From NCBI GenBank assembly GCA_041650835.1, contig JBAZKL010000003.1, forward strand, positions 291,682-355,681: DNA of 64,000 nucleotides. The letters are read 5' to 3'. Under the pieces are notes generated by a model. That model was given only the letters and a program-made list of their open reading frames with translations, had not been told where the DNA came from and searched no databases. Shown here piece after piece: positions 29,053 to 56,678 of this stretch. How positions within the stretch are numbered: the first letter of the stretch is position 1; each line of letters begins with the position of its first letter. This DNA comes from Candidatus Omnitrophota bacterium (GTDB lineage Bacteria > Omnitrophota > Gorgyraeia > Gygaellales > Profunditerraquicolaceae). A program made the position numbers and the translations under genes.

Positions 29053-29188
29053 TTTAAGAAGACAGGAGAGTTCTTACTTCTTTTGAATTAAGCTGGTTTT
29101 AGAATAAGAGTAGAGTTGTAGAAAAAGTAAATTAAAACATTAATTTGGTTAACCCTTGATGTTAATTTTTACTTGACAAGGTTAATGT

Positions 29189-29521: not shown

Positions 29522-29523
29522 TT

Positions 29524-30627: not shown

Positions 30628-31043
30628 CAAAATAAGAAATTAAAAGATAACAAGACGTTTTCTATAACTATCTTAGAAAGACGGTGACTGCTTACATTCA
30701 AGTTTCTAATGCAACAATTTTAGTAATATGGAGTTCCGGGGACACATTACTTAATTCAAAAAGCAGATTCCCGCTAAAAGCATGCGGGAATGACAAATAG
30801 GAGTGAAATGGGGGACGTATTCGGTTCTCGATAACCGAACACCGAGCACCGATAACCCGGAAGCGGTGACAGTTACTTTGTGGACAGGCATTTTAGTGGG
30901 CTTTTAATATTGACATAAGGTAAATAAAAGGTTATGCTTTGATGAATAATCTAGTCAATTGTTCGGATTTCTATGCGTAGTAAATTTGGAGGTATACGAA
31001 ATGTAAGCGTATACCTTTTTTTATTTTAAGGAGGATACAAATT

Positions 31044-40835: not shown

Positions 40836-40913
40836 GGCCCCATCGTCTAGCCTGGCCTAGGACGAATGGTTCTCAGCCATTAAACACCGGTTCAAATCCG
40901 GTTGGGGCTACCA
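40836..40913 (+). tRNA. tRNA-Glu (anticodon CTC), CCA encoded
   Basis: GGCCCCATCGTCTAGCCTGGCCTAGGAC D-arm as in bacterial tRNA-Glu, anticodon loop TTCTCAG, T-arm CCGGTTCAAATCCGG, 3' ...GGGGCTACCA. Confidence 0.8.
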
Positions 40914-41257: not shown

Positions 41258-42853
41258 CTAGTTTTGTCGAGATTTGAGGAGGCGATTCCAGATTTCTTGC
41301 TGCTTATTCCAGTCGACTTCTACGCTTACGTTGCGCAGCTTGTATTCAGGTATGTTGAATAGCGCTTTATCATTAGAGAGGAGTATTTCTTCTTGGATTT
41401 TTGACGATATGAGGAGCATATTTGCTATATGGCATATCCTTGCTGGGGTTATACCGATCCAGCCAGCGATTTCTTTCAAGGTACATTTTCTTTCGCGCGC
41501 CACTTGGTCTATCTGATGAGCTAAGATTAGATTCTGGCGTATAAGTGGTTCCTTGTTTATCTCGGCCTGCTGGCGATGGTAAGGTATATGCTTCAATTCA
41601 GCGAGCTTTAGCGTGAATTGGTGGCTCTTTTCGCCATTATGGGGCATTATTTCGAGGACTCCGTTAATCGCGTCATAATGTGCGACCTTGGCGATTGATT
41701 TGATTATTGGTATCTTTTCTTCTAAGGTTAGCGCTTCCCATCTATTGGCTTCAATACTTGGATCATTGGACATCATTCTTAAGAATTCCATAAACTTATT
41801 CTCGATCACTTGAGCGGAAACAAGACGCGTAGGGCAGTTTTTGTAGCCGCGTTTCTGGGCGTTCATACAAAGGTAGTAATGGTATTTATTGGCGCCTTTC
41901 TTGCTATAAATGTAATACATGGTACTGTCGCAGGCCTTACAGCGTAGGATGCTGTTTAGTAGGCCAGTGCTTGTTACTACGCCTGCAACCTTACGCTCTC
42001 GACGATTATTGGCTAGTATTTCTTGAGTTTTTTGGAATACGTCGTCCGGTATTATACGTTCCTGCTCACCTTGGTAAAGCACTCCAGCATGGTGGACTTT
42101 ACCGATATAAAATGGATTCTTAACTATCGTTTGGATACTCGTGCTTTTAAACTTTATGCCACCAGATTTTTTATTCTTCAGAGTTGCATAGCTTTTTGTT
42201 GTGTGATTCTTTTCATTAAGTACTATTGCTACTGAGAGAAGGGATCGCTTTTCAAGGTAAAGGCCGAATATTTCTTTTACAAGCTTTGCTTCCTTTGAGT
42301 TTATGACGAGTCTGCGGTTTATCTTGTCGATATCATAGCCTAAAGGTGGCCTACCGCCGACCCATTTGCCTTTCTTTTTGGAAGCGGCCATCTTATCGCG
42401 CGTGCGTTCACTTATGATTTCGCGCTCAAACTGGGCGAAGGAAAGGAGTATATTTAATGTCAGACGTCCCATAGAGGTAGTGGTATTAAAATGCTGCGTT
42501 ATTGAAACGAACGTTACGTTGTTTTGTTCAAAAGACTCTAAGAGCTGACTAAAGTCAAGCAGCGATCGCGATAACCTATCAACCTTATATACCACTACAC
42601 AGTTAATCTTGCCGTCTTTAATGTCAGCCATGAGCTTTTGCAGGGCAGGTCGCTCAGTATTCGCTCCTGTGTAGCCAGGATCATCATAACGTTCTGGCAA
42701 TGCTACCCAGCCTTCCGACTTTTGGCTTTGGATGTAGCTTTCAGCGGATTCGCGTTGGTTATCTAAAGACGTAAATTCCTGCGCTAGTCCTTCAGTAGTT
42801 GAGACGCGCGTATATATAGCACAGTTGATCTTTTTCTTTTCAGTTTTTTCCAT
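41258..42853 (-). CDS. Large serine recombinase (integrase)
   Basis: N-terminal resolvase catalytic domain (CAIYTRVSTTEG with the Ser nucleophile; VVVYKVDRLSRS), then a recombinase domain and a zinc-ribbon/coiled-coil C-terminus; 531 aa. Confidence 0.85.
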   Translation of the reverse strand: MEKTEKKKINCAIYTRVSTTEGLAQEFTSLDNQRESAESYIQSQKSEGWVALPERYDDPGYTGANTERPALQKLMADIKDGKINCVVVYKVDRLSRSLLDFSQLLESFEQNNVTFVSITQHFNTTTSMGRLTLNILLSFAQFEREIISERTRDKMAASKKKGKWVGGRPPLGYDIDKINRRLVINSKEAKLVKEIFGLYLEKRSLLSVAIVLNEKNHTTKSYATLKNKKSGGIKFKSTSIQTIVKNPFYIGKVHHAGVLYQGEQERIIPDDVFQKTQEILANNRRERKVAGVVTSTGLLNSILRCKACDSTMYYIYSKKGANKYHYYLCMNAQKRGYKNCPTRLVSAQVIENKFMEFLRMMSNDPSIEANRWEALTLEEKIPIIKSIAKVAHYDAINGVLEIMPHNGEKSHQFTLKLAELKHIPYHRQQAEINKEPLIRQNLILAHQIDQVARERKCTLKEIAGWIGITPARICHIANMLLISSKIQEEILLSNDKALFNIPEYKLRNVSVEVDWNKQQEIWNRLLKSRQN

Positions 42854-42861
42854 CAGCCCTC

Positions 42862-43305
42862 CTATAGATTAAAAAACAAGTAGCCATTCCAATGCGCTCC
42901 AGTTATCTCTTTGGCAATGGCGGATAAAGTCTTATAAATCTTTCCATTATACTCGAAACTTTTCTCAAGTACTTTTACTTGGCGCTTTGTGTTTTTATAT
43001 TCCTTAGTGATTACAGTCCCCGGAATAGGCAGACGCTTATCTTTGGCTGTAACCGGCAGACATGAAGCTGGCTTATCTGGCCTAAGGGCTTTATTATTGA
43101 TAGGATCGTATTCCTCAATAAGTGCTTTCAGTCGACTATTGGCTTTGGCTGATAGGCTGCCTTGTTCACGCTCCTGTAGTCTATAAGCAATCCTTCGCCA
43201 TAGATAGAGCCTATGTGTTCCGGCAGCATCCTCGTCGTAGAGTTCTTTGTACCGCCTTAGAAGCTCTTCAACAGGCGCGTTTTTAAGTGCCATTATCTCA
43301 TTCAT
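42862..43305 (-). CDS. Hypothetical protein co-oriented with the serine recombinase (DUF2924-like, possible directionality/accessory factor)
   Basis: 147 aa; the C-terminal ...YNGKIYKTLSAIAKEITGAHWNGYLFF resembles the small conserved proteins often found upstream of large serine recombinases. Assigned from memory only. Confidence 0.35.
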   Translation of the reverse strand: MNEIMALKNAPVEELLRRYKELYDEDAAGTHRLYLWRRIAYRLQEREQGSLSAKANSRLKALIEEYDPINNKALRPDKPASCLPVTAKDKRLPIPGTVITKEYKNTKRQVKVLEKSFEYNGKIYKTLSAIAKEITGAHWNGYLFFNL

Positions 43306-43431: not shown

Positions 43432-43635
43432 TTGTATCTTGGAGAGTTAATGGGCAAAAAGATAGAGGTCTATACTGTAGAAGAAGTCGCAAGCGCTTTG
43501 AAATTACATCCATATACGATAAGAAGATTGAGCCGGGAAAAGAAAATCCCGGCTTTTAAATTTGGCGGCCAGTGGCGATTCCGAAAAGATGAAATTGATA
43601 AATGGTCGAAAAATCCGCAAGTAATTAATAAATAA
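43432..43635 (+). CDS. Excisionase-family HTH DNA-binding protein
   Basis: YTVEEVASALKLHPYTIRRLSREKKIPAFKFGGQWRF is an HTH_17/Xis-like signature. Confidence 0.6.
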   Translation: MYLGELMGKKIEVYTVEEVASALKLHPYTIRRLSREKKIPAFKFGGQWRFRKDEIDKWSKNPQVINK

Positions 43636-43637: not shown

Positions 43638-46433
43638 ATGACGCGTAGCGAAGCACAAACTAGACAGCAGATCATTGACCAGCGTCTTAAATTGGTTGGC
43701 TGGGATGTAAAAAATCCAACCCATGTCACCGAAGAGCTTGATATTTGGGTTGGTTTGCCCGATGGTGTTGCCGAGTCACAAACGCCATATCAAGGGCATC
43801 TATTTGCTGATTATGCGCTTCTTGGGCAAGACGGAAAGCCATTGGCTGTAGTTGAGGCAAAAAAGACTTCGGTTGAAGCTGAGAAAGGTAAAGAACAAGC
43901 GCGTATTTATACTGAAAAGATCCAGAAGACTACTGGTGGACCTATGCCGTTTGTGTTTTACACAAATGGTTATGACTTTTTTTTCTGGGATACTGAACGA
44001 TACCCTCCACGAAAAGTATATGGCTTTCCTTCACGAGCTGATTTAGATCGCATGCAATTCCTGCGCGACAATAGTAAAGTTTTATCCAGCGAACTTATTA
44101 ACCCGGCCATTGCGGGCAGGCCGTATCAGCTTCAAGCTATACGGGCAATGCTAGAAAATTTTGAACTCAAGCGTCGAAAGAGCTTGCTTGTTATGGCAAC
44201 TGGTACCGGTAAGACGCGGACTTGTATGGGATTGATTGATGTACTAATGCGTACAAATTGGGTTCAACGTGTTTTGTTTCTAGTAGATAGAATCGCTCTG
44301 CAGGAGCAAGCTCTCGATGCTTTCAAGGAGCATCTGCCTAATGCCCCGATTTGGCCCAAACAAGGGGAAGTTAAATTCGCGACAGATCGTCGGGTTTATG
44401 TTGCTACTTACCCGACTATGTTGAATATTATTGAGCAAGACAATTGTCAACTTACATCACATTTTTTCGATATGATTATTGCGGATGAAAGTCACCGGTC
44501 AATTTATAATGTTTATAAAAACATCTTTGATTATTTCGATACGATACAATTAGGACTTACCGCCACCCCCAAGGATCATGTTGACCATAACACTTTTAAA
44601 CTTTTTAACTGTGAAGAAGGTTTACCTACATTTGCATATTCATATGAAGAGGCTCTTAGTAATATTCCGCCCTATTTATCTGATTTTGAAGTCTTGAAAG
44701 TTAGAACAAAGTTTCAGCAGGAAGGCATAAACAGTAAGACAATAGCCGAGGCAGATAAGAAGCGGCTTCTTGCCGAAGGAAGCGATCCAGACGCCTTTAA
44801 TTTTGAAGGAACAGAATTAGAAAAGAAAATTTCGAATAAAGGGACTAATGCAGTTATTGTCCGCGAATTCATGGAAGAGTGTATTAAGGATCCCAATGGT
44901 GTCCTACCGGGTAAAACCATAATCTTCGCACTTTCTAAGAAGCACGCTTATCGCCTTTGTGAGGTTTTCGATGCTCTCTATCCTGAATACAAAGGTCGTC
45001 TGGCAGAAGTAATTATTTCAGATATCAAAGGAGTTCATGGTAAAGGTGGCATTCTTGATCGATTTAAGAATACCGATATGCCACGTGTAGCTATAAGCGT
45101 TGATATGCTTGATACTGGCATCGATATTCTCGAAGTGGTTAATCTCGTATTTGCCAAACCTGTCTTATCTTTCACGAAATTTTGGCAGATGATCGGACGT
45201 GGGACACGTATTTTAGACTCTGAAAAGATTAAGCCATGGTGTACCGAGAAGGAAAAATTTTTAATTATGGATTGTTGGGAGAATTTTGAGTATTTCAAGA
45301 TGAAACCTAAAGGCAAAGAAGAATCTCCGACAATCCCGCTTCCAGTGCGGCTTTTTGAATCCCGACTCAATAAATTATGGATCGCCCTCGAAGCAAAGGA
45401 AGATGAAATTGCAGAAAAGACAAAGAAGAAAATCCAGGACGATATTAAATCCTTACCACAAAATTCTGTTATTGTTCTCGACCACAAGGAATACTTAGAT
45501 CAGGTACAAGAGGAAGCATTTTGGAAGAAGTTATATTTTGGTGAGATTGACTATCTTCGTATTAATGTTGCGCCTGCCATGCGCGCTAAGTCAGACGCGG
45601 ATTTTAAAGCCATGCATTTCGAGTTAGACGTTGTGGACTTGGCAACAGCACACCTAGCTGGACGCGACGAACAATTTGAGGTATTGAAGGAAGGCATAAT
45701 TGAAACGGTCAGCGAGTTACCCTTAACCGTGAATATTGTCGCGCAGGAAAAGGCGTTTATCGAAAAAGTTCAGAGCAAGAATTTTTGGATAATATTCACT
45801 GATTTAGATCTGGATGAAATGGTAGCGCGCTTAGCGCCACTTATGAAGTTTCGCGAGCAGAATAAAATCAAACAAACCAAGGCTGATTTAATGGATTTAT
45901 TAACTGTTAAAGAGTATATCGAATTTGGCCCTGAGCATGAGCGGCTTACCATTGGTAAATATCGCCAGAAGGTTGAGGACGCAGTTCGTGAACTGATCAA
46001 ATCAAACGAGGTTTTGCAGAAGCTTCTTGCCGGAGATGACCTTTCGGAGGATGAAATCAGAAAATTGGCTGAGATTTTAGAAACCCAATACCCGAACGTT
46101 ACAGAATACATCTTGCGTGAGATTTACGATAATCGAAGCGCGAAGTTTATTCAGTTTATTAAGCACATTTTAGGGTTGGAACCACTAGGGACGTTTACCG
46201 AAACAGTTTCGATGGCGTTTGATGATTTTATCAGAAAACACAATAACTATACTCAACAACAAATCCAATTTTTGTTGACGTTAAAGACATTTATCCTGCA
46301 AAAGGGTAAAGTTGAAAAACGAGACTTAGTTAACGCCCCATTTACCCAATTGCATCCACAGGGTATTCGGGGGATTTTTCAATCGAATGAAATTAATGAG
46401 ATTCTAGCGTTGGCGCAGAAACTTGAGGGCTAA
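43638..46433 (+). CDS. hsdR: Type I restriction enzyme R subunit
   Basis: N-terminal SEAQTRQQIIDQRL...GW motif, DEAD/DEAH helicase motifs (MATGTGKT, DESH) and a C-terminal helical domain; 931 aa. Confidence 0.9.
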   Translation: MTRSEAQTRQQIIDQRLKLVGWDVKNPTHVTEELDIWVGLPDGVAESQTPYQGHLFADYALLGQDGKPLAVVEAKKTSVEAEKGKEQARIYTEKIQKTTGGPMPFVFYTNGYDFFFWDTERYPPRKVYGFPSRADLDRMQFLRDNSKVLSSELINPAIAGRPYQLQAIRAMLENFELKRRKSLLVMATGTGKTRTCMGLIDVLMRTNWVQRVLFLVDRIALQEQALDAFKEHLPNAPIWPKQGEVKFATDRRVYVATYPTMLNIIEQDNCQLTSHFFDMIIADESHRSIYNVYKNIFDYFDTIQLGLTATPKDHVDHNTFKLFNCEEGLPTFAYSYEEALSNIPPYLSDFEVLKVRTKFQQEGINSKTIAEADKKRLLAEGSDPDAFNFEGTELEKKISNKGTNAVIVREFMEECIKDPNGVLPGKTIIFALSKKHAYRLCEVFDALYPEYKGRLAEVIISDIKGVHGKGGILDRFKNTDMPRVAISVDMLDTGIDILEVVNLVFAKPVLSFTKFWQMIGRGTRILDSEKIKPWCTEKEKFLIMDCWENFEYFKMKPKGKEESPTIPLPVRLFESRLNKLWIALEAKEDEIAEKTKKKIQDDIKSLPQNSVIVLDHKEYLDQVQEEAFWKKLYFGEIDYLRINVAPAMRAKSDADFKAMHFELDVVDLATAHLAGRDEQFEVLKEGIIETVSELPLTVNIVAQEKAFIEKVQSKNFWIIFTDLDLDEMVARLAPLMKFREQNKIKQTKADLMDLLTVKEYIEFGPEHERLTIGKYRQKVEDAVRELIKSNEVLQKLLAGDDLSEDEIRKLAEILETQYPNVTEYILREIYDNRSAKFIQFIKHILGLEPLGTFTETVSMAFDDFIRKHNNYTQQQIQFLLTLKTFILQKGKVEKRDLVNAPFTQLHPQGIRGIFQSNEINEILALAQKLEG

Positions 46434-46449
46434 AATTTAAGGAGTAAAA

Positions 46450-48003
46450 ATGCTCACACAAAATATGAAAGCGCTTATAAATTCGCTTTGGGATAAATTC
46501 TGGAGCGGCGGTATTTCAAATCCTCTAACTGCAATTGAGCAAATTTCCTATCTCTTGTTCATGCGTAGGCTGGATGATATGGATACTAAGTTTAAAAGTG
46601 ACTCCGATTTTACTGGTGAGAAATATCAATCTATATTTGAAGGCAAGTTTGCGATCCCAAATACCAAGGAATCGGTTGATAAGGCTACTCTTCGCTGGAG
46701 CTATTTTAAGCAGATGGAAGGTGGTGAAATGCTTAGACACGTCCAGTTGAAGGTGTTTCCATTTGTGAAACAGGTCAATGGTAGAAATACGGTTTTTACA
46801 AAGCAGATGGAGGATGCGGTATTTATTATTCCTAAAGCATCTCTTCTAGTTGAGGCGGTCAGTATTATTGATAAGCTCTACGAAGAAATTGAGATCGGAA
46901 TGCGGGGAGGGCAAACATTTCATGATACCCAAGGCGATATGTATGAATTCCTTCTGGCAGAAATTGCCACAGCTGGGAAGAATGGTCAATTTCGTACGCC
47001 ACGGCATATTATTCAGATGATGTGTGAGCTTGTGGATCCTAAAATGTTAGAGCTTGTCTGCGACCCAGCGTGTGGTACTGGTGGTTTCTTGCTTGGTGCT
47101 TACCAACATATTTTAACTCACTATACGAGTAAAAATCGTCTGCAGAAAGACGAGAATGGCTTTATGCGGGGCACTTTGGCCGATAAACTCACAGATGAGC
47201 GATTATGGAAACAACTGAAAGAGGAAACATTTTATGGTTATGATTTTGATTCAACCATGGTTCGTATAGGTTTGATGAATCTTATTCTTCACGGAATTTC
47301 CTATCCAAATATTAATCGTAGGGACACGCTTTCTAAAAACTACAATGAGGATAATAAATATCATGTTATTTTGGCTAATCCTCCATTTAAAGGGAGCATT
47401 GATGAGGGCGATATAAATGAAAGTTTATCTTTAGATACAACAAAGACAGAGCTTCTTTTTGTTAATCGCATTATTAATTCATTACGGATTGGTGGTCGTG
47501 CTGGCGTTATTGTGCCGGATGGTGTTCTTTTTGGCTCAAGCAGAGCACATAGAGATTTACGTAGGATGTTAATTGATAAGTGTGAACTTCAAGGTATTAT
47601 TTCTATGCCAAGTGGAGTTTTTAAGCCGTACGCCGGAGTTAGTACTGCGGTTTTAGTTTTTGTTAAAGGGGGAACGACAGAAAAGGTGTGGTTTTACGAT
47701 ATGCAGGCAGATGGGTATTCGCTTGATGACAAACGTGAAAAGATTGAGACGACAGATCTGCCGACTATTGTAGAAGAATGGGGAAATCGGCATAAAGGAA
47801 AGGACAATGATCGTAAAGCCAAACATTTTTTTGTACCCGTTAAAGAAATTATCAACAAAGATTATGATCTAAGTATTAATCGCTATAAAGAAATCGACTA
47901 TCAGCCAGTCAAATATGAAAAACCAGAGAAAATTCTATTAAAGATCGAGAAAATAGAATGTGACATACAAAAAGGTATTAAGGACTTAAAGGATTTATTG
48001 TAA
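46450..48003 (+). CDS. hsdM: Type I restriction-modification N6-adenine DNA methyltransferase subunit
   Basis: HsdM N-terminal domain, AdoMet motif I (DPACGTGGF) and catalytic NPPF. Confidence 0.9.
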   Translation: MLTQNMKALINSLWDKFWSGGISNPLTAIEQISYLLFMRRLDDMDTKFKSDSDFTGEKYQSIFEGKFAIPNTKESVDKATLRWSYFKQMEGGEMLRHVQLKVFPFVKQVNGRNTVFTKQMEDAVFIIPKASLLVEAVSIIDKLYEEIEIGMRGGQTFHDTQGDMYEFLLAEIATAGKNGQFRTPRHIIQMMCELVDPKMLELVCDPACGTGGFLLGAYQHILTHYTSKNRLQKDENGFMRGTLADKLTDERLWKQLKEETFYGYDFDSTMVRIGLMNLILHGISYPNINRRDTLSKNYNEDNKYHVILANPPFKGSIDEGDINESLSLDTTKTELLFVNRIINSLRIGGRAGVIVPDGVLFGSSRAHRDLRRMLIDKCELQGIISMPSGVFKPYAGVSTAVLVFVKGGTTEKVWFYDMQADGYSLDDKREKIETTDLPTIVEEWGNRHKGKDNDRKAKHFFVPVKEIINKDYDLSINRYKEIDYQPVKYEKPEKILLKIEKIECDIQKGIKDLKDLL

Positions 48004-49157
48004 TGAATAAGCAGGTGAATATTATCGATGCTGTCGAAATAATAAATAATCGAGTAAGGCCATTTAAGGGGCAGCGAAGATATTTAGCAACCGGTGACTT
48101 GGCTGGTGATGAAATTAATGAAACTGCTTTTGTGGATTATGAATCTAGGCCTAGCCGAGCAGATTTATTGGTAAATGAGGGCGAGATTATAGTTGCTCGC
48201 ATGCAAGCTACTAATAAAGTTCTCTTGATTGATGATACGACGAAAGATCTTATTGTTTCTACAGGATTTTTAACGCTTGCTCCGAAAAAAGGCTTTGATA
48301 TAAGATATCTTGCTCATTATTTTCGATCTGATATATTTCAACGCCAAAAAGACAGATATTGTTCTGGCGCAACGCAAAAAGCCATCAATAACGGGGCTTT
48401 TGAAAAATTATGTGTTCCAAGTTATCCGCTAGATGAGCAAAGAAAGATCGCTAAAATTTTAAGCCATGTTGAATTATTACGCCAGAAACGCAAGCAATCA
48501 TTTTGGTTTCTTAATGATTTTCTTCATGCAACATTCTTGCACATGTTTGGGGATCCTATACAAAATCCTAATAATCTGGCACAGAAGAAAATCGGAGAGC
48601 TCGGAAAAGTTATTACTGGCAACACTCCCCCTCGCCATAAGAAGGAATATTATGGAAATTATATTGAATGGATTAAATCAGATAATATAAATACACCACA
48701 ATTTACACTTACGAGAGCAGAGGAATATTTATCGAAAAAGGGTGCAGGAGTCGGTAGGGTTGCTCCTAAAGGATCAGTGTTGGTGACATGTATAGCCGGT
48801 ACGCCCGATTGTATTGGTAATATTGCAATGGCAGACCGTGAAGTTGCGTTTAATCAACAAATTAATGCATTTGTCCCGGGAGGAGAAATCTCCCAAACAA
48901 TATTTTTTGCCCAGGTGTTATTTTGCAAGAAGCTGATTCAACAAGCATCTACAAACAGCATGAAGGGTCTTGTATCAAAAGGCAAATTTTCTGAGATCAA
49001 AATTATCGTTCCTCCCAAAAAACAGCAAAATCGATTCGAAGCAATATTTGATAGGGTTGTGATCTTACGTTTACAGCAGCAAAGAAGCGCATTAGAGCTG
49101 GATAATCATTTTAATGTTTTAATACAAAAAGTATTTGGAGAAGCTGAAAATGTTTAA
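48003..49157 (+). CDS. hsdS: Type I restriction-modification specificity subunit
   Basis: Two target-recognition domains separated by conserved coiled-coil spacers; start overlaps the hsdM stop. Confidence 0.8.
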   Translation: MNKQVNIIDAVEIINNRVRPFKGQRRYLATGDLAGDEINETAFVDYESRPSRADLLVNEGEIIVARMQATNKVLLIDDTTKDLIVSTGFLTLAPKKGFDIRYLAHYFRSDIFQRQKDRYCSGATQKAINNGAFEKLCVPSYPLDEQRKIAKILSHVELLRQKRKQSFWFLNDFLHATFLHMFGDPIQNPNNLAQKKIGELGKVITGNTPPRHKKEYYGNYIEWIKSDNINTPQFTLTRAEEYLSKKGAGVGRVAPKGSVLVTCIAGTPDCIGNIAMADREVAFNQQINAFVPGGEISQTIFFAQVLFCKKLIQQASTNSMKGLVSKGKFSEIKIIVPPKKQQNRFEAIFDRVVILRLQQQRSALELDNHFNVLIQKVFGEAENV

Positions 49158-49812
49158 GCGGTATTTTGAGTATAATCAAGCATTATTAAATGCTCAATAT
49201 GGAGTTTCTGAAATTATAGAGCACCTGCAAACACGAGGCGAAGTAAGGGAAGATTTTATTCGCGATTTGATTATTAAGAGAAAACGTAATTTATTGGTTG
49301 GGACAGGATTCCTATCTGATGGTCGAGCTCAAAGTCCACAATGCGATATTATTATTGCACGAGATAATGCTCCTGTTATTTCTTTTGGCCAAAAAATTTG
49401 TTTAAATGTTTCTGATTGTAAAATTGTTGTTGAAGTTAAGAGTAATCTAACGAGTCAAGATATAAAGGTGTGTAACGAGAAAGCAGCTCAGATAAAAAGA
49501 ATGGCTGGTGAGTCAAAACCATTGTATGGTATTTTCTGTTATAAATTTAATTTTAAGAAAAATACTTTATTGCGGAGTTTTCGATTTGTTTATGATCCTG
49601 AGATTATGGAATATAACGAAAATCCGGCACTTCCTATGGTTTATCCAAATATTGATTTTATAATTTCAATAAGTGATGAAGAAGAATATCTGGAAAACGA
49701 AGATATTAAAAAGCAGTTTTTCGTAATAAAAAATGAAGTGACAGGAGGATATTCTTTCTTTAATGATTATCCTCCCATTAGGTACTTTTGGCGTTTGATA
49801 GATGGATTATAA
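49135..49812 (+). CDS. Hypothetical PD-(D/E)xK nuclease-like protein overlapping hsdS 3' end
   Basis: CDIIIARD...KIVVEVKSN gives a D...(E)VK restriction-endonuclease-fold motif. Overlaps the hsdS stop by 23 nt, suggesting co-transcription. Confidence 0.4.
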   Translation: MEKLKMFKRYFEYNQALLNAQYGVSEIIEHLQTRGEVREDFIRDLIIKRKRNLLVGTGFLSDGRAQSPQCDIIIARDNAPVISFGQKICLNVSDCKIVVEVKSNLTSQDIKVCNEKAAQIKRMAGESKPLYGIFCYKFNFKKNTLLRSFRFVYDPEIMEYNENPALPMVYPNIDFIISISDEEEYLENEDIKKQFFVIKNEVTGGYSFFNDYPPIRYFWRLIDGL

Positions 49813-49997
49813 AGAAATAGACATTTAGCTAAGGTAATGACGTGGTTAAGTAAATAAAATAATAATGGAAAACGGTATGCCTGAAGCGAAACAAATTATT
49901 GTTGAAGACGAAACTCTAAATGCGGTTACAAGCGACAACCTTTTTGAGAAAATCAATATTCCCCTCAGACGGATAAGTAATAAAAGGAGGTTTGAAC

Positions 49998-50879
49998 ATG
50001 GCTGAGCAGATAGAACAGAGAAAGAAAAGATCTCAGCAAATTGTTTTTCATCTGTTCCGATATCAAATTCTGCCTACGACGCAAACAATCCAATTGCGAT
50101 TTGATTCGCCAGTTAAGAATCTGGAAGATTTAAAGGCCAAAAAGAATAACTTTTTTTCTCAGGCGTTGACGGGCATGAAAAGAATTAATTATTCAAGAAC
50201 AGAGTTAACGCATAAAGTGAGTGAAATCGATAAAGATTTTTATCTTATAAAATTAGCTGCAAAAAGAAGTCTTAAGCGGTCGACACGCGATTTTAAGGAA
50301 GAGAAGATTGAAAATTGGCCTGCCACGAATATTATTATCAATAACCATCCGGCTGTTCAGAAAGCCATTATTCAGTTTAACCAAAAGGTTTTTAATGACA
50401 CAAAGAATATTGCTGATATTTTGCAGGATAGTTTAAACGATATGCTTAAAGAGTACCAACTTCATGTAATTTTTGAGAAAATTTTTGATGAAGTTAAATT
50501 TTGGCAAGTCGTCAATCTTTATAAGAACAGGATTATTCAGGCTGAATTCGAGCTAATTTCTCCTAATTTGGCGAATATTTCAAAATCCCTACAATTTGAT
50601 TTACAAGCGTTAAATCGTTCGACTAATACACAAAAAACAAAACTGCAGCTTAACAGTGATAAGGAAGCGATACTGACTCTGTCGCAAGAAGATCCCCTGG
50701 TTTCCGGCTTAGTAGATTATGCATCTCAAGGGGGAGGCAAAATTAACCTTAAGGTTCGGGGATTAAATAAAAAAATACATACTTCTGATAAAGCCACGGA
50801 AATAACAATTGATGAGATGGTATTTAATAACGCGGATCCAAAGGATATTCTAAAGATAATTGGTGGGATTATCAAATGA
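49998..50879 (+). CDS. Hypothetical soluble protein (gene A of a two-gene module)
   Basis: ATG at 49998 preceded by AAAGGAGG; no recognisable domain. Its stop overlaps the start of the downstream membrane-protein gene (ATGATGG). Confidence 0.45.
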   Translation: MAEQIEQRKKRSQQIVFHLFRYQILPTTQTIQLRFDSPVKNLEDLKAKKNNFFSQALTGMKRINYSRTELTHKVSEIDKDFYLIKLAAKRSLKRSTRDFKEEKIENWPATNIIINNHPAVQKAIIQFNQKVFNDTKNIADILQDSLNDMLKEYQLHVIFEKIFDEVKFWQVVNLYKNRIIQAEFELISPNLANISKSLQFDLQALNRSTNTQKTKLQLNSDKEAILTLSQEDPLVSGLVDYASQGGGKINLKVRGLNKKIHTSDKATEITIDEMVFNNADPKDILKIIGGIIK

Positions 50880-51313
50880 TGGACGTCATAAAAAATATAT
50901 CGGTTTCGGTGTTACTAGGAATTATTATTAACTCGTTATCTTCCTGGATGGGAAGCCATTTTTTATTAAAGTTTTTGGATTGCAATTTGATTACTTTACT
51001 CGTTGCCTTGATGGCGATTAATACTACTACGATGAGCGTCATGATGACTAAGATGAGCGAGATTAAAGAGCGACACAAAATTGATTTTCCAAAGACTATT
51101 CGTGAGATGACGGCTTCGATTTATGAACAAATATCGTTAATATGTATTGCGGTGGCTTTACAGATTATTAGCGATAGTCCGAAGATGAAACAATTGTGGC
51201 CAAATCCCGAGTTTATTATTTCAAGTTTTTTAGTGGCAGTTTTTGTATATGCAATGTTGATATTGTTTGATACTGCAAAAGGCATATTTGTTTTATTGGA
51301 GAATGAAAAGTAG
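50876..51313 (+). CDS. Small polytopic membrane protein (gene B of a two-gene module)
   Basis: 145 aa with about 4 predicted TM helices; translationally coupled to the upstream gene. Confidence 0.45.
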   Translation: MMDVIKNISVSVLLGIIINSLSSWMGSHFLLKFLDCNLITLLVALMAINTTTMSVMMTKMSEIKERHKIDFPKTIREMTASIYEQISLICIAVALQIISDSPKMKQLWPNPEFIISSFLVAVFVYAMLILFDTAKGIFVLLENEK

Positions 51314-51392: not shown

Positions 51393-53132
51393 ATGAAGAT
51401 AAGATCACTAAAAATCCATAATTTCCGTTCAATTCTGGATTCACCCGAGATAATTTTTAACGACTTCTCATTATTAGTTGGAGCAAATAATGTCGGGAAG
51501 TCTAACTTAATCGATGTTTTAAGAATTTTATATGATGATGAAAAATTTGATAGTAAACGAGATTTTCCCAAGGTTTCTTTAAAACCAACCGATAATGAAA
51601 GTTGGGTTGATGTTAAATATATCCTTTCTGAAGAAGAATATAAGAATTTGCCTGATTATGCTAAAAAATTTACAAATAAATTAAGAATCAGAAAATATTT
51701 TAAATCTGACAATTCAGAACAGTTCAAATCTGGTCAGAGCAATATCTTTGCTTATGAAGAAGAAGGAGTGATATCTAAGAACCTGTTTCATGGAGCCAAG
51801 AATGTTTCTGAAGCAAAACTTGGACGGATTATATTTATTCCATCAGTTAACAAAACAGAAGATGTATTAAAAACTTCTGGTCCCTCTCCTTTGAGGCAGA
51901 TAGCTACATTTGTTTTTGAAAAAGTTGCCAAGAAAAGTCCTGCTTTTAATAATCTTGAAACGGCGTTTTCGAGTTTTGAGAGTGATTTTTCTACTGAATC
52001 TTCTTCAGATGGTTTTTCTATCAAAGATCTTATTGTCGATGTGAATAAGCATCTGGAGGAATGGCAGATATCATTCGGCATAAATATTAAAAAAATTAAG
52101 ATTGATGATATCATCAAAAACTTATTTGAGCATAATTGGAAAGATGATAACCTTGACGGTGAGGTTATAGACATAAATCAATATGGTCAGGGGTTTCAGC
52201 GCCACATAATCTATACACTTATTAAGTTATCAGCAAAGTATGTAGATAAAAGAACATCAAGCAAAAAAGAATTTATACCAGAATTTACGCTGATTCTATT
52301 TGAGGAACCAGAAGCATTTTTGCATCCGGCTCAGCAGGAAATATTACATGCGGGTTTGAAAGAAATCACTAGCGATGGGGAAGAACAAACCCAGGTTTTA
52401 ATTTCGACTCATTCCCCCATTTTTGTATCTAGAAACATTGATGATTTAACTTCGGTAATTAGATTGCAAAAGGAAAAAGGAAATACTAGGATTTCACAAA
52501 TTACCGAAATTAATGAGGATATTTTGTTCGGTGAAAATGCAAAATTGCTAGATTTTTTAAAAACAAAGTTAACTGAAACGTCAACTCCCGCAGATGTAAA
52601 ATCAGAAATTAAAAATATTGTTAATGGAACCGATGATTCTCTTAAGCTAGAAGAAGAATCAATGCGATATTTTTTATGGTTGAATTCAGAAAGGTGCTCA
52701 TTATTTTTTGCTGATTTTGTAATTATTTGTGAGGGAGCATCAGAAAAAATATTTGTTGAGTATTTGTTTAAATCAAAATGGGAAGATTTACGAAAGAAAC
52801 GTATTTATTTACTTGACGCAGGAGGTAAATACAATATTCATAGGTATATGAATTTATTTGAATTGTTATGTATTTCCCACAGCATTTTGTTGGATTCTGA
52901 TGGTGATAGGAAACATCAGAAATATATAAATGAATTTATTGATAGTAATAAGCGTCCCCAAACTAGATCGATTCATAAGTTTAATCCTGATTTTGAGAAT
53001 TTTCTAACTATTACTCCTGCTAAGAGGCCCGATAAAAAGCCTTTAAATGTATTTCTACATTTTCGAAATGGAAAAATTACTGATGCTAAGATAAATGAGC
53101 TGAAAGAAATTATTCAAAGAATTAGTACTTAG
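51393..53132 (+). CDS. OLD-family ATP-dependent endonuclease (ABC-type ATPase + Toprim)
   Basis: Walker A GANNVGKSN, Walker B/D-loop LILFEEPEAFLHP and a C-terminal Toprim with the EGxSE-type motif (VIICEGASEKIFVE). Confidence 0.75.
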   Translation: MKIRSLKIHNFRSILDSPEIIFNDFSLLVGANNVGKSNLIDVLRILYDDEKFDSKRDFPKVSLKPTDNESWVDVKYILSEEEYKNLPDYAKKFTNKLRIRKYFKSDNSEQFKSGQSNIFAYEEEGVISKNLFHGAKNVSEAKLGRIIFIPSVNKTEDVLKTSGPSPLRQIATFVFEKVAKKSPAFNNLETAFSSFESDFSTESSSDGFSIKDLIVDVNKHLEEWQISFGINIKKIKIDDIIKNLFEHNWKDDNLDGEVIDINQYGQGFQRHIIYTLIKLSAKYVDKRTSSKKEFIPEFTLILFEEPEAFLHPAQQEILHAGLKEITSDGEEQTQVLISTHSPIFVSRNIDDLTSVIRLQKEKGNTRISQITEINEDILFGENAKLLDFLKTKLTETSTPADVKSEIKNIVNGTDDSLKLEEESMRYFLWLNSERCSLFFADFVIICEGASEKIFVEYLFKSKWEDLRKKRIYLLDAGGKYNIHRYMNLFELLCISHSILLDSDGDRKHQKYINEFIDSNKRPQTRSIHKFNPDFENFLTITPAKRPDKKPLNVFLHFRNGKITDAKINELKEIIQRIST

Positions 53133-53144
53133 CGCAAAAACGAT

Positions 53145-54272
53145 ATGAAGTTAGTTCATTTCTCAGATACGCATTTAGGTTTTTCTGATTACAATAAGGT
53201 TGATCCAGAAACAGGTATCAACTTAAGAGAAGCCGATGTATATCATGCCTTTGCGCGGGTTATTGATTACATTATCAATAACCCGCCAGATATAGTAATT
53301 CACTCTGGTGATCTTTTTGATACTCATAGGCCTTCCAATAGAGCTATCAATATTGCTTTAAAAGAAATTGCAAAAATATCTCAAAAACAAATCCCCCTTG
53401 TAATGATTTCGGGTAATCATTCAACGCCGCGCGTAAAAACCTCCGGTTCTATTTTCGAAATATTCGAAATATTCGATAATGTATATCCAGTATATCAATC
53501 AAAGTATAAAGAGATTATCATAAAAGATGCAGCATTGCATTGCGTACCACATATGGCTACAGAAGAGGAGTTAAGGAAGGTTTTTGATAATCTCAAGCCA
53601 AACAGTAAGGTTAAGTATAATATAATAATTGCTCACATGGGAGTGACAGCAGATGTACAGTATAAGATGGGTGAGTTCAACGAATTGATTATTCCCTACG
53701 GCGTCATTAAGAAAAAAAACAATTTTGATTACATAGCTCTTGGCCATTATCATAAAAACCTACTCCTAGCAGACAATTGTTATTATTCAGGTTCAACGGA
53801 ACGTTTTAGTTTTAATGAGGTAGGGCAGGATAAAGGATTTATCGAAGTAAATCTATCTCAGAAGAAAACGGTGTTTATTCCTCTAAAAGTACGAGAAATG
53901 ATAGCTTTGGAATCAATTGATTGTCGAGATCTCAATATAAATGAGATTGTTAAGAAAGTGGAGCAACTCATTACTGGAAAAACCCTGGGGAGTATACTTC
54001 AGGTTACTTTTGATAATATAAAAAAACACCAATACGCCGAGTTAAACTTTCAAAAACTAAGAGACTTAACTAAAGATGCTGTTCATCTGAAAATAATCTG
54101 CAATTGGATGAGTGAAAAAGGGAAGGAAAGCACTAATACCGCGATAGGTACGCTTTCGGCAGAATTTGAGAGCTTTATCGAACACCAAGATATCAAAGAT
54201 TTAGATAAGAAAAAACTCAAAGAATTAGGAATAAATTATCTTTCGATTACTCAGGGGGCAGAGGAAGAATAA
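53145..54272 (+). CDS. sbcD: SbcD/Mre11-family nuclease (calcineurin-like phosphoesterase)
   Basis: Phosphoesterase motifs HFSDTHLG, GDLFD, GNHS and the later His motifs; 12 nt after the OLD gene. Confidence 0.8.
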   Translation: MKLVHFSDTHLGFSDYNKVDPETGINLREADVYHAFARVIDYIINNPPDIVIHSGDLFDTHRPSNRAINIALKEIAKISQKQIPLVMISGNHSTPRVKTSGSIFEIFEIFDNVYPVYQSKYKEIIIKDAALHCVPHMATEEELRKVFDNLKPNSKVKYNIIIAHMGVTADVQYKMGEFNELIIPYGVIKKKNNFDYIALGHYHKNLLLADNCYYSGSTERFSFNEVGQDKGFIEVNLSQKKTVFIPLKVREMIALESIDCRDLNINEIVKKVEQLITGKTLGSILQVTFDNIKKHQYAELNFQKLRDLTKDAVHLKIICNWMSEKGKESTNTAIGTLSAEFESFIEHQDIKDLDKKKLKELGINYLSITQGAEEE

Positions 54273-56678
54273 ATGTTTTTAAGAAGCCTTAAATTAAAAA
54301 ACTATAGGAAGTTTCGAGAAGAAATAATCGAATTCCCAGAAGGCATAATAGCTGTAATAGGACCTAATGGTGCAGGAAAATCCTCTATTTTAGAGGCCAT
54401 AGGATGGACTTTGTATGGCAACGCAATGGCGCGGACAGACAAGCTAGAAGTAAAGAGTCAAAATGCTTCTGAGGAAGAAGGCTGTGAAGCCGAACTTGTC
54501 TTTGATTTTGGAGACCACTCATACAAGATTTTTAGAGAGCTCAAGGGGAAAAACGCTATTTCGAATGCGTTAGCATATGTAGATGGAAGTATAGATCCTA
54601 TTGCAGAAAGAGATAGTGGTGTCAATCAATATATAGAAAGTTTGCTTGGGATGGATTACGGCACTTTCATAAAAACTGTTTATGCTAAACAAAAAGAATT
54701 AGCGGCTTTTTCGATTCTTCGTGCGGAAGATAGGAAAAAAGTCATAAGGAGGATGCTTAATATTGATCGTATTGACTTAGCCGTGACGAAAATTAGATCA
54801 GACGAGAGAGATAAACAGAAATTTATCGAAGGTATTCAAACTAGTCTTGAAGATCTTGATAAGTTAGAACAAGAAAAAAACGATATCATAAACCAACAGA
54901 AAAAGATAAATAAAGATGTCAATGATCGTGCCTTGACTTTAAAAACTATTGCGGAGGACAGGGATAAAATAAAGAAAGATAAAGATCATCAAGAACAAAA
55001 ATTTAAGATTTTTAATTCTTTTAATAAAGATAGCTCTCGTTTTGATACACAAAAATCCTCACTTGATAGAAGATTGAAAGAATTATTGAAGGAGCTAGGA
55101 GAATTAAAACAAAAAAAAGAGTCATTGGAAAAAATAGAATCTAAAGAACAGGAATATTTGAAAACTAAAAAAGATAAAGAGGATCAAGAAACATTGCGCT
55201 TACAATATCAAGAAAAGGTTGCCTTAATAAAGAGAATCAAGGAGAACAACGATGATATGGCTCAACGTTAAGGCAAGCATAAATTATCCACAGAACAATT
55301 AAAAGACTTTTCCGGAGCGCAGGAAGATTCAGACAAAACAGAAAAAACTATACATGAACAAGAAATTATAAGAAGAAGGCTTGAGAAAGAGACTAAAGAA
55401 ATTGAAGGAGAAGTGCGTATTTGTTCTTCGAAAATCGGAGAATTGCTATCACAAAAAAAGAAGTTCACTCAATTAGGCAGAAATGGCAAATGTCCTACTT
55501 GTTTCCGTGAGTTAGGAGACAATTACGAGGATATAGGAGGACATATTGATAGTGAGATAAAAAGCATTAAAGAAAAATTGCAACCAATACAAGAAAAAAG
55601 AGATAAGCTTAACAAACAATTAGAGGAGGTTATTGAGAATATAGATAAATTGGTTGAGAAAAAAAATAAACTAAATGAGAAATTGAAAAGAAAGTCTAGA
55701 GCTGAACAATCAATCGAAGAGCAAGACATCGAAATTAAAAAACTAAAAATAAAAATCGAGAAAGAAAAAGAGAAGCTAGAGGGCATGAGGGATATTAAAT
55801 TTGATCAAAACGCTTACGAGAAATTGGTAGATAAATTTGATGCGTTGTCAGAAATTAGGGATACTATTTTAGCGTTAAGAAAAGAAATTCAGAGAATTCC
55901 TAAAATCAATGAGATGATAGATGCTACGGAAAAAGAAATACAACTATTAGATTCTCAAATTAAACAAGTAGAAGATGAGCTAAAGAAGCTAGATTTTGAT
56001 GAGGGTAAATATGATAGGGTTAAAGCCAGCTATGAAGTTATAAATGATAAATTAAGCGAAATACAGAATAAATTGAATGATTCTAAAAGTCAACTCGCAG
56101 TTTCGAAGCAGAGACTGATCAATCTTGAAGAAAAGATTGATCGTCAAAAAGCGAGTAGAAATAAAATAGAAGAAGCTCGTGCGGTGCTTCAATATCTACA
56201 GCGTCTTGAATCTCTCCTGGAGAGTTTTAGGCTTGAATTAACAAGCAGAATTCGTCCTTTACTTGAGACCAGGGCTTCTTATCTTTTTAGTGAAATTACA
56301 AATGGACGTTATCCTTCTATAGAATTAGATGAAGACTACGAAATGTCTATACTCGATGGTAATAAAGTTTTTAGATTAAAAAGATTCTCGGGAGGAGAAG
56401 AAGATCTAGCCAATTTATGCCTAAGAATAGCAATGTCACAAGTTATCGCAGAGCGGAGTGGAGGCATAGAGATAAATTTTATTGCTTTAGACGAAATATT
56501 CGGTAGTCAAGATGAAGACCGTAGACAAAATATCTTGAATTCTCTTAATAAATTAGCATCTCAGTTTCGTCAGATTTTTTTGATTACTCATATAGAAGAT
56601 ATTAAAGAGATGCTTTCTAGGGTTTTACTGGTAGAGGAGAATATTACGACCAAGGAAAGCAAGGTGTCATTAGGATAA
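54273..56678 (+). CDS. sbcC: SbcC/Rad50-family ATPase, interrupted by one in-frame TAA (55269-55271)
   Basis: N-terminal Walker A (GPNGAGKSS), long coiled coil with a CPTC zinc hook, and C-terminal signature and Walker B/D-loop (LDEIFGSQD). ORFs 54273..55271 and 55413..56678 share one frame and are separated only by a single TAA, with no other stops. Confidence 0.7.

What the first reader, a model, noticed from the sequence alone, without database searches (positions are those of the whole stretch)
49135..51313. Three uncharacterised genes wedged between Type I RM and the OLD nuclease: a PD-(D/E)xK protein overlapping hsdS, then a translationally coupled soluble + 4-TM pair
The 225-aa protein starting inside the hsdS 3' end has a D...EVK restriction-endonuclease-fold motif. 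Type I RM loci sometimes carry embedded accessory nucleases such as anticodon nucleases. The next two genes overlap by ATGATGG and encode a 294-aa soluble protein and a 145-aa four-helix membrane protein. That matches the sensor-plus-membrane-effector pattern of abortive-infection systems. None of the three has a recognisable family.
Basis: inference. Interest (0 to 1): 0.6.

Follow-up and report, generated by a model that had tools for sequence, protein, structure and literature searches.

The report
RM-linked nuclease plus Rex-like defence pair
The three genes are real but form two separate anti-phage modules inside a prophage-like defence island: a NucC-like nuclease that always travels with the restriction-modification genes, and a soluble-plus-membrane gene pair built like phage lambda's RexA/RexB suicide switch.

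Summary
All three ORFs exist as described. They are A 49150-49812 (220 aa), B 49998-50879 (293 aa) and C 50876-51313 (145 aa, four hydrophobic helices, ATGA overlap with B). They are not one unit.

A matches Pfam DUF6602. Its putative catalytic residues are invariant and its model matches NucC over its full length. In all six contexts examined it directly follows the specificity or methylase gene of an RM operon, while the genes downstream vary.

B and C form an independent two-gene module. In 25 of 38 non-redundant loci B is followed by C, and 20 of those 25 keep the 4-nt NTGA overlap. The pair sits in prophages and defence islands. In four prophage lineages it lies directly behind a CI-like repressor, the lambda cI-rexA-rexB layout.

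B and C match no Pfam or PADLOC model. B has no Foldseek match to solved structures. There is weak profile similarity to the Rex-like sensors CarolAnn gp44 and Sbash gp30 (score 25.3; 0/100 and 1/100 shuffles reach it). One relative carries the source name 'DUF4747 family protein'.

The best reading is a Damona/NucC-like nuclease coupled to a Type I RM, plus a Rex-like abortive-infection pair. This is a new variant of known kinds and of moderate interest.

The parts
40836..40913 (+). tRNA-Glu next to the island. G+C falls from about 0.50 upstream (1-27 kb) to 0.31-0.42 after it.
41258..42853 (-). Large serine recombinase of the element. DUF2924 (42862-43305, minus strand) and an HTH_17 excisionase-like gene (43432-43635, plus strand) follow it.
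   Evidence: The same trio precedes hsdRMS-DUF6602 in L053, L055 and the P0209 contig.
43638..49157 (+). Type I RM operon: hsdR 43638-46433, hsdM 46450-48003, hsdS 48003-49157.
   Evidence: The homologous operons carry Pfam HSDR_N, N6_Mtase and Methylase_S.
49150..49812 (+). Gene A: a DUF6602 PD-(D/E)xK nuclease with a NucC-like fold. Its start overlaps the hsdS stop. It is the conserved fourth gene of this RM block.
49813..49997 (+). 185-nt spacer between A and B, ending in the AAGGAGG ribosome-binding site of B. Promoter- and terminator-like sites are not above chance.
49998..50879 (+). Gene B: a 293-aa soluble protein of a large unannotated family. Proposed Rex-like cytoplasmic sensor.
50876..51313 (+). 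Gene C: a 145-aa membrane protein with four hydrophobic helices, translationally coupled to B (ATGA). Proposed membrane effector.
51393..53132 (+). OLD-family ATPase-TOPRIM nuclease. It is a neighbouring, separate defence gene, followed by SbcD-like and SbcC-like genes.

Best explanation
The interval holds two independent anti-phage modules. They are cargo of a serine-recombinase, prophage-like element integrated next to tRNA-Glu.

Module 1 is gene A, a NucC-like PD-(D/E)xK DNA endonuclease of Pfam family DUF6602. This is the domain of the single-gene defence system 'Damona'. A is inherited as the last, translationally coupled gene of the hsdR-hsdM-hsdS operon. It most likely acts as a second nuclease expressed together with the Type I enzyme. 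Its linkage and fold are shown. Its trigger and its substrate are inferred.

Module 2 is the pair B-C, which is organised like lambda RexA/RexB. B would be a cytoplasmic sensor, possibly DNA-binding and dimeric. On infection it would activate C, a small 4-TM inner-membrane protein made in fixed ratio with B through the ATGA overlap. C would collapse membrane potential or integrity and abort the infection. The pairing, coupling and genomic context are shown. The sensor, effector and depolarisation steps are inferred by analogy with RexAB, Sbash gp30/31, CarolAnn gp44/43, P. putida RexABpp and Sucellos.
For: Gene A:
- Pfam DUF6602, E 3e-12, above the cut-off. PADLOC cas-associated PD_DExK, E 7.5e-16.
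- E31, E34, D66, E95 and K97 are invariant.
- The AF2 model has pLDDT 86 and pTM 0.86. Its top 14 Foldseek PDB hits are NucC structures over the full length (E 1.5e-9, TM 0.55-0.63).
- It lies directly after hsdS or a fused M-S gene in the window, L051/52, L053/54, L055, the P0209 contig and L092 (39% identity). The downstream genes differ each time: HigB plus HTH-M78, Fic, an HTH gene, or B-C.
- DUF6602 'Damona' gave phage resistance experimentally (bioRxiv 10.1101/2024.07.02.601686).

Pair B-C:
- B is followed by a C homologue in 25 of 38 non-redundant loci. Twenty of those 25 have the 4-nt NTGA overlap.
- The family is large: 1299 representatives at 50% identity with E<=1e-3.
- Neighbours are recombinases, integrases, CI/S24 repressors, Type I RM, PD-T4-6 kinases, a MADS gene (mad6), AAA_15 and ThsB-TIR.
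- A CI-like repressor lies directly upstream on the same strand in L009/L039, L027/L040, L041 and L042. That is the lambda cI-rexA-rexB order.
- Eleven loci come from IMG/VR viral contigs.
- A distant pair sits after int in an icd-integrated E. coli prophage (32 of 5426 genomes) and in a Vibrio PM2-like phage.
- The B model (pLDDT 84, pTM 0.81) has 7 strands, then 4 strands with helices, then C-terminal helices. This is the same count and order as the published RexA description (PMC11077077).
- C equals RexB in length and hydrophobic pattern.
- hhalign of B against the CarolAnn/Sbash sensor family scores 25.3. Column shuffles give 13.6 +/- 2.1 (0 of 100 reach it) and block shuffles 15.7 +/- 2.7 (1 of 100).
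- A Shewanella homologue carries the source name 'DUF4747 family protein'. The literature assigns that domain to RexA-like sensors (PMC6426596, PMC6426606, PMC13373217).
Against: Pair B-C:
- No Pfam RexA, RexB or DUF4747 hit at E<=1 for any of 68 diverse B proteins. Lambda RexA itself scores 1e-97 against Pfam RexA.
- No PADLOC hit.
- Foldseek of the B model against the PDB gives nothing at E<=1e-3. The published RexA entry 8TWQ was not among the matches listed.
- hhalign of B against RexA is at noise level (P 0.2-0.7).
- Thirteen Bacteroidota-type loci have B without C, so B can work without this effector.
- There are no experimental data for this family.

Gene A:
- No cyclic-oligonucleotide synthase appears in any of its contexts, so NucC-style activation is unexplained.
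- Most of its contexts are homologous islands, so the linkage could partly reflect shared ancestry.
Confidence: 0.6

Rival explanations
1. A, B and C together form one accessory system of the Type I RM, for example a nuclease plus sensor plus membrane effector wired to HsdRMS.
For: All three lie between hsdS and the next defence gene on one strand. B-C also lies 10-17 nt downstream of hsdR in L007 and L008. RM operons upstream of 'DUF4747/CarolAnn' operons are reported as a recurrent layout (PMC13373217).
Against: A and B-C are never found together elsewhere. Five other A contexts lack B-C. Thirty-seven other B loci lack DUF6602 among their neighbours. A 185-nt spacer with its own strong RBS separates A from B. 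Only about 5 of 38 B loci touch Type I RM genes.
Confidence: 0.05
2. A is a guard of the Type I RM, following the logic of PrrC with EcoprrI. It would be held inactive by the Hsd complex and released as a DNA nuclease when phage anti-restriction proteins attack the enzyme.
For: A is strictly positioned after hsdS or M-S with overlapping or near-overlapping stop and start, across 39-95% identity and two RM architectures. HsdR already supplies a nuclease, so a second constitutive one seems redundant. No nucleotide-signal synthase is nearby.
Against: Nothing shows an interaction. DUF6602 works as a stand-alone cassette in Vibrio ('Damona'). Most contexts are related islands. A has no similarity to PrrC or RloC.
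Confidence: 0.15
3. B is mainly a DNA-binding regulator of the mobile element's own lysogeny or excision switch, as RexA is in lambda independently of RexB. C only modulates it, and defence is secondary or absent.
For: B sits at regulatory borders: directly after CI-like repressors, after integrases, and opposite a conserved MerR-like gene plus serine recombinase in 10 Bacteroidota loci where C is absent. RexA has such a RexB-independent role, and orphan RexA homologues exist (PMC11077077).
Against: In the window, L007 and L008, B-C lies amid defence cargo, away from the recombinase and regulator end. The tight coupling to a membrane protein in 25 of 38 loci fits an effector. All experimentally tested Rex-like pairs defend against phage (PMC6426596, PMC6426606, PMC12894663).
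Confidence: 0.12
4. B-C is a superinfection-exclusion, toxin-antitoxin or lysis-control pair that blocks DNA entry or stabilises the element, rather than a sensor-triggered abortive-infection switch.
For: Small prophage membrane proteins next to repressors often act as Sie proteins. Two-gene overlapping operons are typical of TA systems. TA genes are neighbours in L001.
Against: B, at about 290 aa, is much larger than typical antitoxins. It has a conserved two-domain fold with conserved surface motifs. The weak similarity found is to Rex-like sensors.
Confidence: 0.08

Closest known systems
Phage lambda RexA/RexB exclusion system (Pfam PF15969/PF15968; RexA structure 8TWQ)
   Same: The gene order is a soluble protein of about 280-290 aa followed by a membrane protein of about 145 aa with four hydrophobic helices. 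Both are prophage-borne and lie directly downstream of a CI-type repressor on the same strand. The predicted B architecture of 7 strands, then 4 strands, then C-terminal helices matches the published RexA description.
   Different: No sequence, profile or Foldseek similarity was detected. B and C overlap by 4 nt, whereas rexA and rexB are separated by 15 nt. B-C also occurs outside prophage immunity regions, and B occurs without C in Bacteroidota.
Actinophage Rex-like systems: CarolAnn gp44/gp43, Sbash gp30/gp31, Butters gp30/gp31 ('DUF4747/CarolAnn' system)
   Same: Each is a two-gene module of cytoplasmic sensor plus 4-TM partner with overlapping genes, expressed in the lysogen. The only above-noise profile similarity found for B is to this sensor family (score 25.3; 0/100 and 1/100 shuffles). 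One B-family member carries the name 'DUF4747 family protein'.
   Different: The actinophage sensors are about 360-370 aa against about 285-293 aa for B, and their partners are 148-178 aa. hhalign probability is only 3%. No DUF4747 hit appears in the Pfam copy used. The membrane partners show no similarity.
Sucellos (SclA/SclB, V. cholerae integron cassette VCA0367-0368) and P. putida RexABpp (PP_5643/5644)
   Same: Both are experimentally validated RexAB-like pairs that, like B-C, escape the Pfam RexA model or BLAST. Both genes are required, and the membrane partner causes cell death or permeabilisation. Close relatives of B occur in Vibrio, including V. cholerae, and a subfamily is common in Salmonella and E. 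coli prophages. The authors report the same for Sucellos homologues.
   Different: Identity with Sucellos could not be tested because no sequence was available. RexApp is about 37 kDa and RexBpp has more than 181 residues, so both are larger than B and C. RexApp is found by HHpred against RexA (98%), and no such link was shown for B.
NucC (CBASS and type III CRISPR cA3-activated endonuclease) and 'Damona' (DUF6602 single-gene defence)
   Same: A has the same PD-(D/E)xK fold as NucC over the full length. It has a weak PADLOC NucC match (E 0.0013). It carries the Pfam domain reported for Damona, with the same secondary matches to Cas PD_DExK and the CBASS small endonuclease.
   Different: No CD-NTase or Cas10 is present in any context. 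A is fixed to the 3' end of RM operons instead of being a free cassette or a CBASS effector.

Membership tests
Pfam DUF6602 (PF20247) | HMM match above the curated gathering score | tested here: met
   46.8 bits against a cut-off of 27, E 3e-12, profile positions 5-104 of 104. Precomputed PF20247 is recorded on 11 of 12 homologues.
PD-(D/E)xK nuclease superfamily | Conserved acidic and lysine catalytic motif (D ... (D/E)xK) on the restriction-endonuclease fold | tested here: met
   D66 and E95-V-K97, plus E31 and E34, are invariant in 11 sequences down to 38% identity. Foldseek matches are NucC, BbvCI, EndoMS and SgrAI.
Damona (DUF6602 single-gene defence) | Homology to the tested V. cholerae cassette protein, and autonomous anti-phage activity | not testable with these tools
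   Only the shared domain name is known.
NucC | Full-length structural similarity to NucC | tested here: met
   The top 14 PDB hits are NucC (E 1.5e-9 to 5e-7, TM 0.55-0.63, 203-245 aligned columns of 220).
NucC | Encoded with a cyclic-oligonucleotide synthase (CD-NTase or Cas10) that supplies the cA3 activator | tested here: not met
   No such gene was found among the island genes scanned, or among the called neighbours in five other contexts.
Anticodon nucleases embedded in Type I RM (PrrC/RloC) | ABC-ATPase plus PrrC-type nuclease domain | tested here: not met
   A has no Pfam, NCBIfam or PADLOC hit of that kind. A is a 220-aa PD-(D/E)xK protein.
Lambda RexA/RexB | Match to Pfam RexA (PF15969) and RexB (PF15968) | tested here: not met
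   No hit at E<=1 for B or C, or for 68 B-family members. The positive controls, lambda RexA and RexB, score 1e-97 and 8.5e-92.
Lambda RexA/RexB | RexA/RdgC-like two-domain fold | tested here: inconclusive
Lambda RexA/RexB | Soluble sensor gene followed by a 4-TM partner, downstream of the prophage repressor | tested here: met
   25 of 38 loci have B followed by C. CI/S24 repressors lie directly upstream in 4 independent prophage lineages. The hydrophobic pattern of C is like RexB.
DUF4747 / CarolAnn-Sbash Rex-like systems | Detectable homology of the sensor to gp44/gp30 or to DUF4747 | tested here: inconclusive
   hhalign gives P 0.014 and score 25.3, against shuffle maxima of 20.6 and 27.4. 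The source name 'DUF4747 family protein' is on a family member. No DUF4747 hit appears in the Pfam copy. The control comparison of RexA with gp44 is also undetectable (P 0.33).
Sucellos (SclA/SclB) | Homology to VCA0367/VCA0368 | not tested
   The sequences could not be obtained.
Any system in PADLOC-DB v2 (including Kiwa, Rex, PD-T4/Lambda and PDC candidates) | HMM match of B or C | tested here: not met
   0 families at E<=1 for B and C of the window. Divergent relatives gave only noise-level hits.

The most novel reading that the evidence does not exclude
Gene A is not a free-standing nuclease. It is an RM-coupled guard: a NucC-like endonuclease kept silent by the Type I methylase/specificity complex and unleashed when phage anti-restriction proteins disable that complex. 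This would be PrrC-like logic with a DNA-cutting effector and no nucleotide second messenger.
Probability: 0.15. Interest if true: 0.7.

Novelty: new variant of a known kind. Interest (0 to 1): 0.4.

Why it matters
B-C belongs to a large family that current annotation leaves blank. The family has at least 1299 representatives at 50% identity and is found from Omnitrophota to Vibrio, Pseudomonas, E. coli and Salmonella. It has no Pfam model and no PADLOC model, and every source calls it 'hypothetical'.

Recognising it as a Rex-like module would add many unrecognised defence loci to catalogues. It would also give tractable E. coli and Pseudomonas homologues for studying how Rex-type sensors fire.

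The fixed hsdS-DUF6602 junction suggests a so far undescribed way of pairing a NucC-fold nuclease with Type I restriction.

Tried and rejected
- **Family scans of B and C.** Pfam, NCBIfam, PHROGs and PADLOC gave nothing.
- **Sequence search of B against the PDB.** Only noise.
- **Foldseek of the B model.** Against the PDB, no hit at E<=1e-3. Against BFVD, only five uncharacterised phage proteins and no RexA.
- **hhalign of B and C against lambda RexA and RexB.** Single sequences and small alignments gave noise. The control comparisons RexA with gp44 and RexB with gp43 were equally undetectable, so these negatives carry little weight.
- **tblastn of B.** No match in phages. One distant E. coli hit in plasmids.
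- **Promoter and terminator scan around the three genes.** Not above shuffles.
- **Search for att-like direct repeats of the island.** Only short chance pairs.
- **Attempt to obtain Sucellos, Damona or PP_5643 sequences from papers or supplements.** Not available.
- **One three-gene system.** Rejected, because A and B-C are never co-located elsewhere.
- **Anticodon nuclease for A.** Rejected, because there is no such domain.
- **Kiwa-like reading for B-C.** Rejected, because there is no DUF4868 or PADLOC hit and the gene order is opposite.
Full report
**1. Observation**

The ORF table and the sequence confirm three same-strand ORFs between hsdS and an OLD-family gene.

- A occupies 49135-49812. 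The likely start is the ATG at 49150, behind GGAG, giving 220 aa. This start overlaps the hsdS stop within ATGTTTAA.
- After a 185-nt spacer, B starts at the ATG at 49998, behind AAGGAGG, and ends at 50879 (293 aa).
- C starts at 50876, inside the B stop (ATGA), and ends at 51313 (145 aa).
- C has four hydrophobic segments and a charged central loop.

The window matches a Candidatus Omnitrophota MAG.

The genes lie in a low-G+C island (0.31-0.42 against about 0.50 in the first 27 kb) that begins after tRNA-Glu. In order, the island encodes:

- a large serine recombinase, DUF2924 and an HTH_17 protein
- hsdR, hsdM and hsdS
- A, then B-C
- an OLD nuclease, an SbcD-like gene and a split SbcC-like gene
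- a 617-aa TIR protein
- a ParB-methylase, a 224-aa protein and a TerL-like protein

This is a prophage-like element packed with defence genes.

**2. Gene A**

A is not family-less.

- It matches Pfam DUF6602 above the gathering score and the PADLOC cas-associated PD_DExK model. It also has a weak NucC match.
- E31, E34, D66, E95 and K97 are invariant in 11 homologues down to 38% identity.
- The AlphaFold model is confident (pLDDT 86, pTM 0.86).
- Its 14 best Foldseek matches in the PDB are all NucC structures aligned over the full length (E 1.5e-9, TM 0.55-0.63). Type II restriction enzymes and EndoMS follow.

Context is the informative part. A directly follows the specificity gene in every context recovered:

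- L051/L052, L053/L054, L055 and the P0209 contig all show the block recombinase-DUF2924-HTH-hsdR-hsdM-hsdS-A or its hsdRMS-A core.
- L092, the most divergent homologue at 39% identity, shows a fused methylase-specificity gene followed by A.

The start of A either overlaps the upstream stop or lies 15-25 nt after it. The genes after A differ each time: HigB with an HTH-M78 protein, Fic, an HTH gene, or B-C here. A therefore belongs to the RM block, not to B-C.

No cyclic-oligonucleotide synthase is present in any context, so NucC-type activation is unexplained.

A DUF6602 cassette named 'Damona' was shown to protect V. cholerae and E. coli against phage (bioRxiv 10.1101/2024.07.02.601686).

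**3. Genes B and C: a conserved pair**

B has 58 cluster representatives in the word-indexed search, all unnamed and without Pfam hits. A full HMM scan finds 1299 representatives at 50% identity with E<=1e-3.

I collected 48 loci carrying B through exact look-ups, a genome scan and an IMG/VR scan. They reduce to 38 non-redundant loci.

- In 25 of the 38, B is followed by a homologue of C. Twenty of those 25 have a 4-nt NTGA overlap.
- Thirteen loci, mostly named Bacteroidota or Chitinophagales MAGs, have B without C.
- In ten of those thirteen, B faces a divergently transcribed MerR-like gene, with a serine recombinase beyond it.
- In those loci B is followed by variable cargo: Metallophos, protein kinase, HsdR-like or HsdM-like genes.

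DUF6602 is never a neighbour of B outside the window.

**4. Context of B-C**

The two nearest genes on each side in 37 loci are dominated by mobile-element and defence functions:

- serine recombinases (10)
- MerR-like (8)
- ResIII helicases (5)
- HsdR (3), S24 repressors (3), Metallophos (3), AAA_15 (3)
- methylases, PD-T4-6-type kinases, a MADS gene (mad6) and integrases

In four independent prophage lineages a CI/S24-type repressor lies immediately upstream on the same strand. These are L009/L039 (Mu-like), L027/L040 (Pseudomonas sp. ok272), L041 and L042. This is the lambda cI-rexA-rexB arrangement.

Other positions are:

- after a P2-type replication gene A
- next to ThsB-TIR
- after an integrase in a satellite-like element
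- 10-17 nt downstream of hsdR in L007 and L008

A distant subfamily (27% identity) lies between int and the attachment site of an icd-integrated lambdoid prophage. It is present in 32 of 5426 complete E. coli genomes and is common in Salmonella. It also occurs in a Vibrio PM2-like temperate phage.

**5. Comparison with Rex-type systems**

The size, order and membrane topology match lambda RexA (279 aa) and RexB (144 aa, 4 TM).

The B model (pLDDT 84, pTM 0.81) has, in order:

- an N-terminal region with seven strands and a long helix
- a middle region with four strands interleaved with helices
- C-terminal helices

The RexA crystal-structure paper describes the same count and order: a split seven-stranded globular domain and a four-strand/four-helix dimerisation domain (PMC11077077).

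Homology to lambda Rex is not demonstrable.

- No Pfam RexA or RexB hit was found for B, C or 68 diverse relatives. Lambda RexA and RexB score 1e-97 and 8.5e-92 as controls.
- Foldseek against the PDB gave nothing significant.
- hhalign against RexA alignments is at noise level.

My hhalign set-up also fails to link RexA with CarolAnn gp44 (P 0.33). The literature treats that pair as related. These negatives therefore have little power.

The one positive signal is B against the CarolAnn/Sbash/Sejanus sensor family.

- The score is 25.3 (P 0.014) over 76 columns, B 109-188 against gp44 118-193.
- It is exceeded by 0 of 100 column shuffles (13.6 +/- 2.1) and 1 of 100 block shuffles (15.7 +/- 2.7).

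In addition, a Shewanella atlantica member of the B family carries the UniRef name 'DUF4747 family protein'. DUF4747 is the domain through which Sbash gp30, CarolAnn gp44, Butters gp30 and RexA have been linked (PMC6426596, PMC6426606, PMC7542560). A 2026 survey lists a 'DUF4747/CarolAnn prophage system' as an immune operon often placed downstream of RM operons (PMC13373217). The Pfam copy available here returned no DUF4747 hit for any B protein, so this label could not be reproduced.

The membrane partners of the different Rex-like systems show no mutual similarity, and C is no exception.

Two further validated Rex-like pairs escape BLAST or the Pfam RexA model in the same way:

- Sucellos (SclA/SclB, V. 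cholerae VCA0367-0368)
- P. putida RexABpp

In both, the two genes are required, and the membrane protein kills or permeabilises the cell. Sucellos homologues are reported mostly in Salmonella prophages. The B family has close Vibrio members and a Salmonella/E. coli prophage subfamily. Identity with Sucellos is therefore possible, but it could not be tested because no sequences were available.

**6. Mechanism proposed**

*Shown.*
- There are two modules.
- A is a NucC-fold PD-(D/E)xK protein with intact putative catalytic residues, genetically fixed to RM operons.
- B-C is a translationally coupled soluble-plus-4-TM pair that moves among prophages and defence islands, often in the lysogeny-expressed slot behind the repressor.

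*Inferred.*
- B senses an infection cue and activates C, which dissipates membrane potential or integrity and aborts infection. B may be a DNA-binding dimer like RexA; the window protein has pI 9.5, though the family median is 7.0.
- Conserved polar residues in C may line a pore or make the contact with B. These are the AINTTT motif in helix 2, E84, D132-T133 and the charged 58-81 loop.
- A is co-expressed with the Type I enzyme. It acts either as an autonomous Damona-like nuclease or as an RM-linked back-up.

**7. Verdict**

- The nuclease call and the sensor/membrane-effector call both hold.
- The three genes are not one system.
- A does have a family.
- The closest known systems are Damona/NucC for A, and the Rex-like family (RexAB, CarolAnn/Sbash 'DUF4747', Sucellos, RexABpp) for B-C.

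I rate this a new variant of known kinds. The family of B-C is large and unannotated, and the hsdS-DUF6602 coupling appears undescribed in the papers searched. The logic of both modules is familiar. Interest is 0.4.

Noticed in passing
window 51393-56678: The OLD-family ATPase-TOPRIM gene is followed directly by an SbcD/Mre11-like phosphoesterase (53145-54272) and an SbcC/Rad50-like ATPase. The ATPase is split into two ORFs (54273-55271 and 55413-56678, with a 141-nt gap). This could be an OLD-plus-SbcCD-like defence operon, or a disrupted gene.
   Followed up: partly
window 56998-58851: A 617-aa protein has an N-terminal TIR domain (TIR_2, E 8e-19) and an unassigned C-terminal 500 aa. It is another likely defence gene in the same island.
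   Followed up: partly
window 59095-62597; L008 9879-13384; L053 9589-13088: A trio of ParB_N-N6_N4 methylase, a protein of about 220 aa and a TerL-like (Terminase_6C) protein recurs downstream of the variable defence slot in three related elements. This suggests a temperate phage or satellite backbone with a cargo hotspot between the RM genes and the packaging genes.
   Followed up: partly
L010, L020, L023-L025, L029, L030, L033, L034, L036: In mostly Bacteroidota/Chitinophagales elements, B stands alone without C. It faces a conserved divergent MerR-like gene of about 280 aa, with a serine recombinase beyond it. Changing cargo follows B (Metallophos, HsdR, HsdM, large helicase-like proteins). 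In L022 B is followed by a Ser/Thr kinase plus a Metallophos phosphatase, and in L021 by an 808-aa protein with an Hsp70-like N-terminus. B may pair with alternative effectors or have a role in element regulation.
   Followed up: partly
L050 8851-10186 (E. coli CP099174.1) and L059 2178-3543 (Vibrio phage PQ189321.1): A distant B-C-like pair (298 or 297 aa, plus 154 or 161 aa, overlapping) lies between int and icd at the end of a lambdoid prophage. It is found in 32 of 5426 complete E. coli genomes, is common in Salmonella, and occurs in a PM2-like Vinavirales temperate phage. All copies are annotated as hypothetical.
   Followed up: partly
window 28000-31000: A second low-G+C stretch (0.32-0.36) carries ORFs at 28015-29052, 29189-29521 and 29524-30627, well upstream of the island. 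It was not examined.
   Followed up: no
L007 7975-8415: In this locus the C homologue (151 aa) is followed, with overlap, by a further 146-aa ORF and several small unannotated genes, then a PAD_porph-like gene and PLD-nuclease genes. This may be an extended variant of the module.
   Followed up: no
L092 130-3614: The most divergent A homologue follows a 932-aa fused methylase-specificity protein (N6_Mtase, Eco57I and Methylase_S domains). No separate hsdR is visible on the short contig. DUF6602 could be the nuclease partner of such M-S fusions.
   Followed up: no
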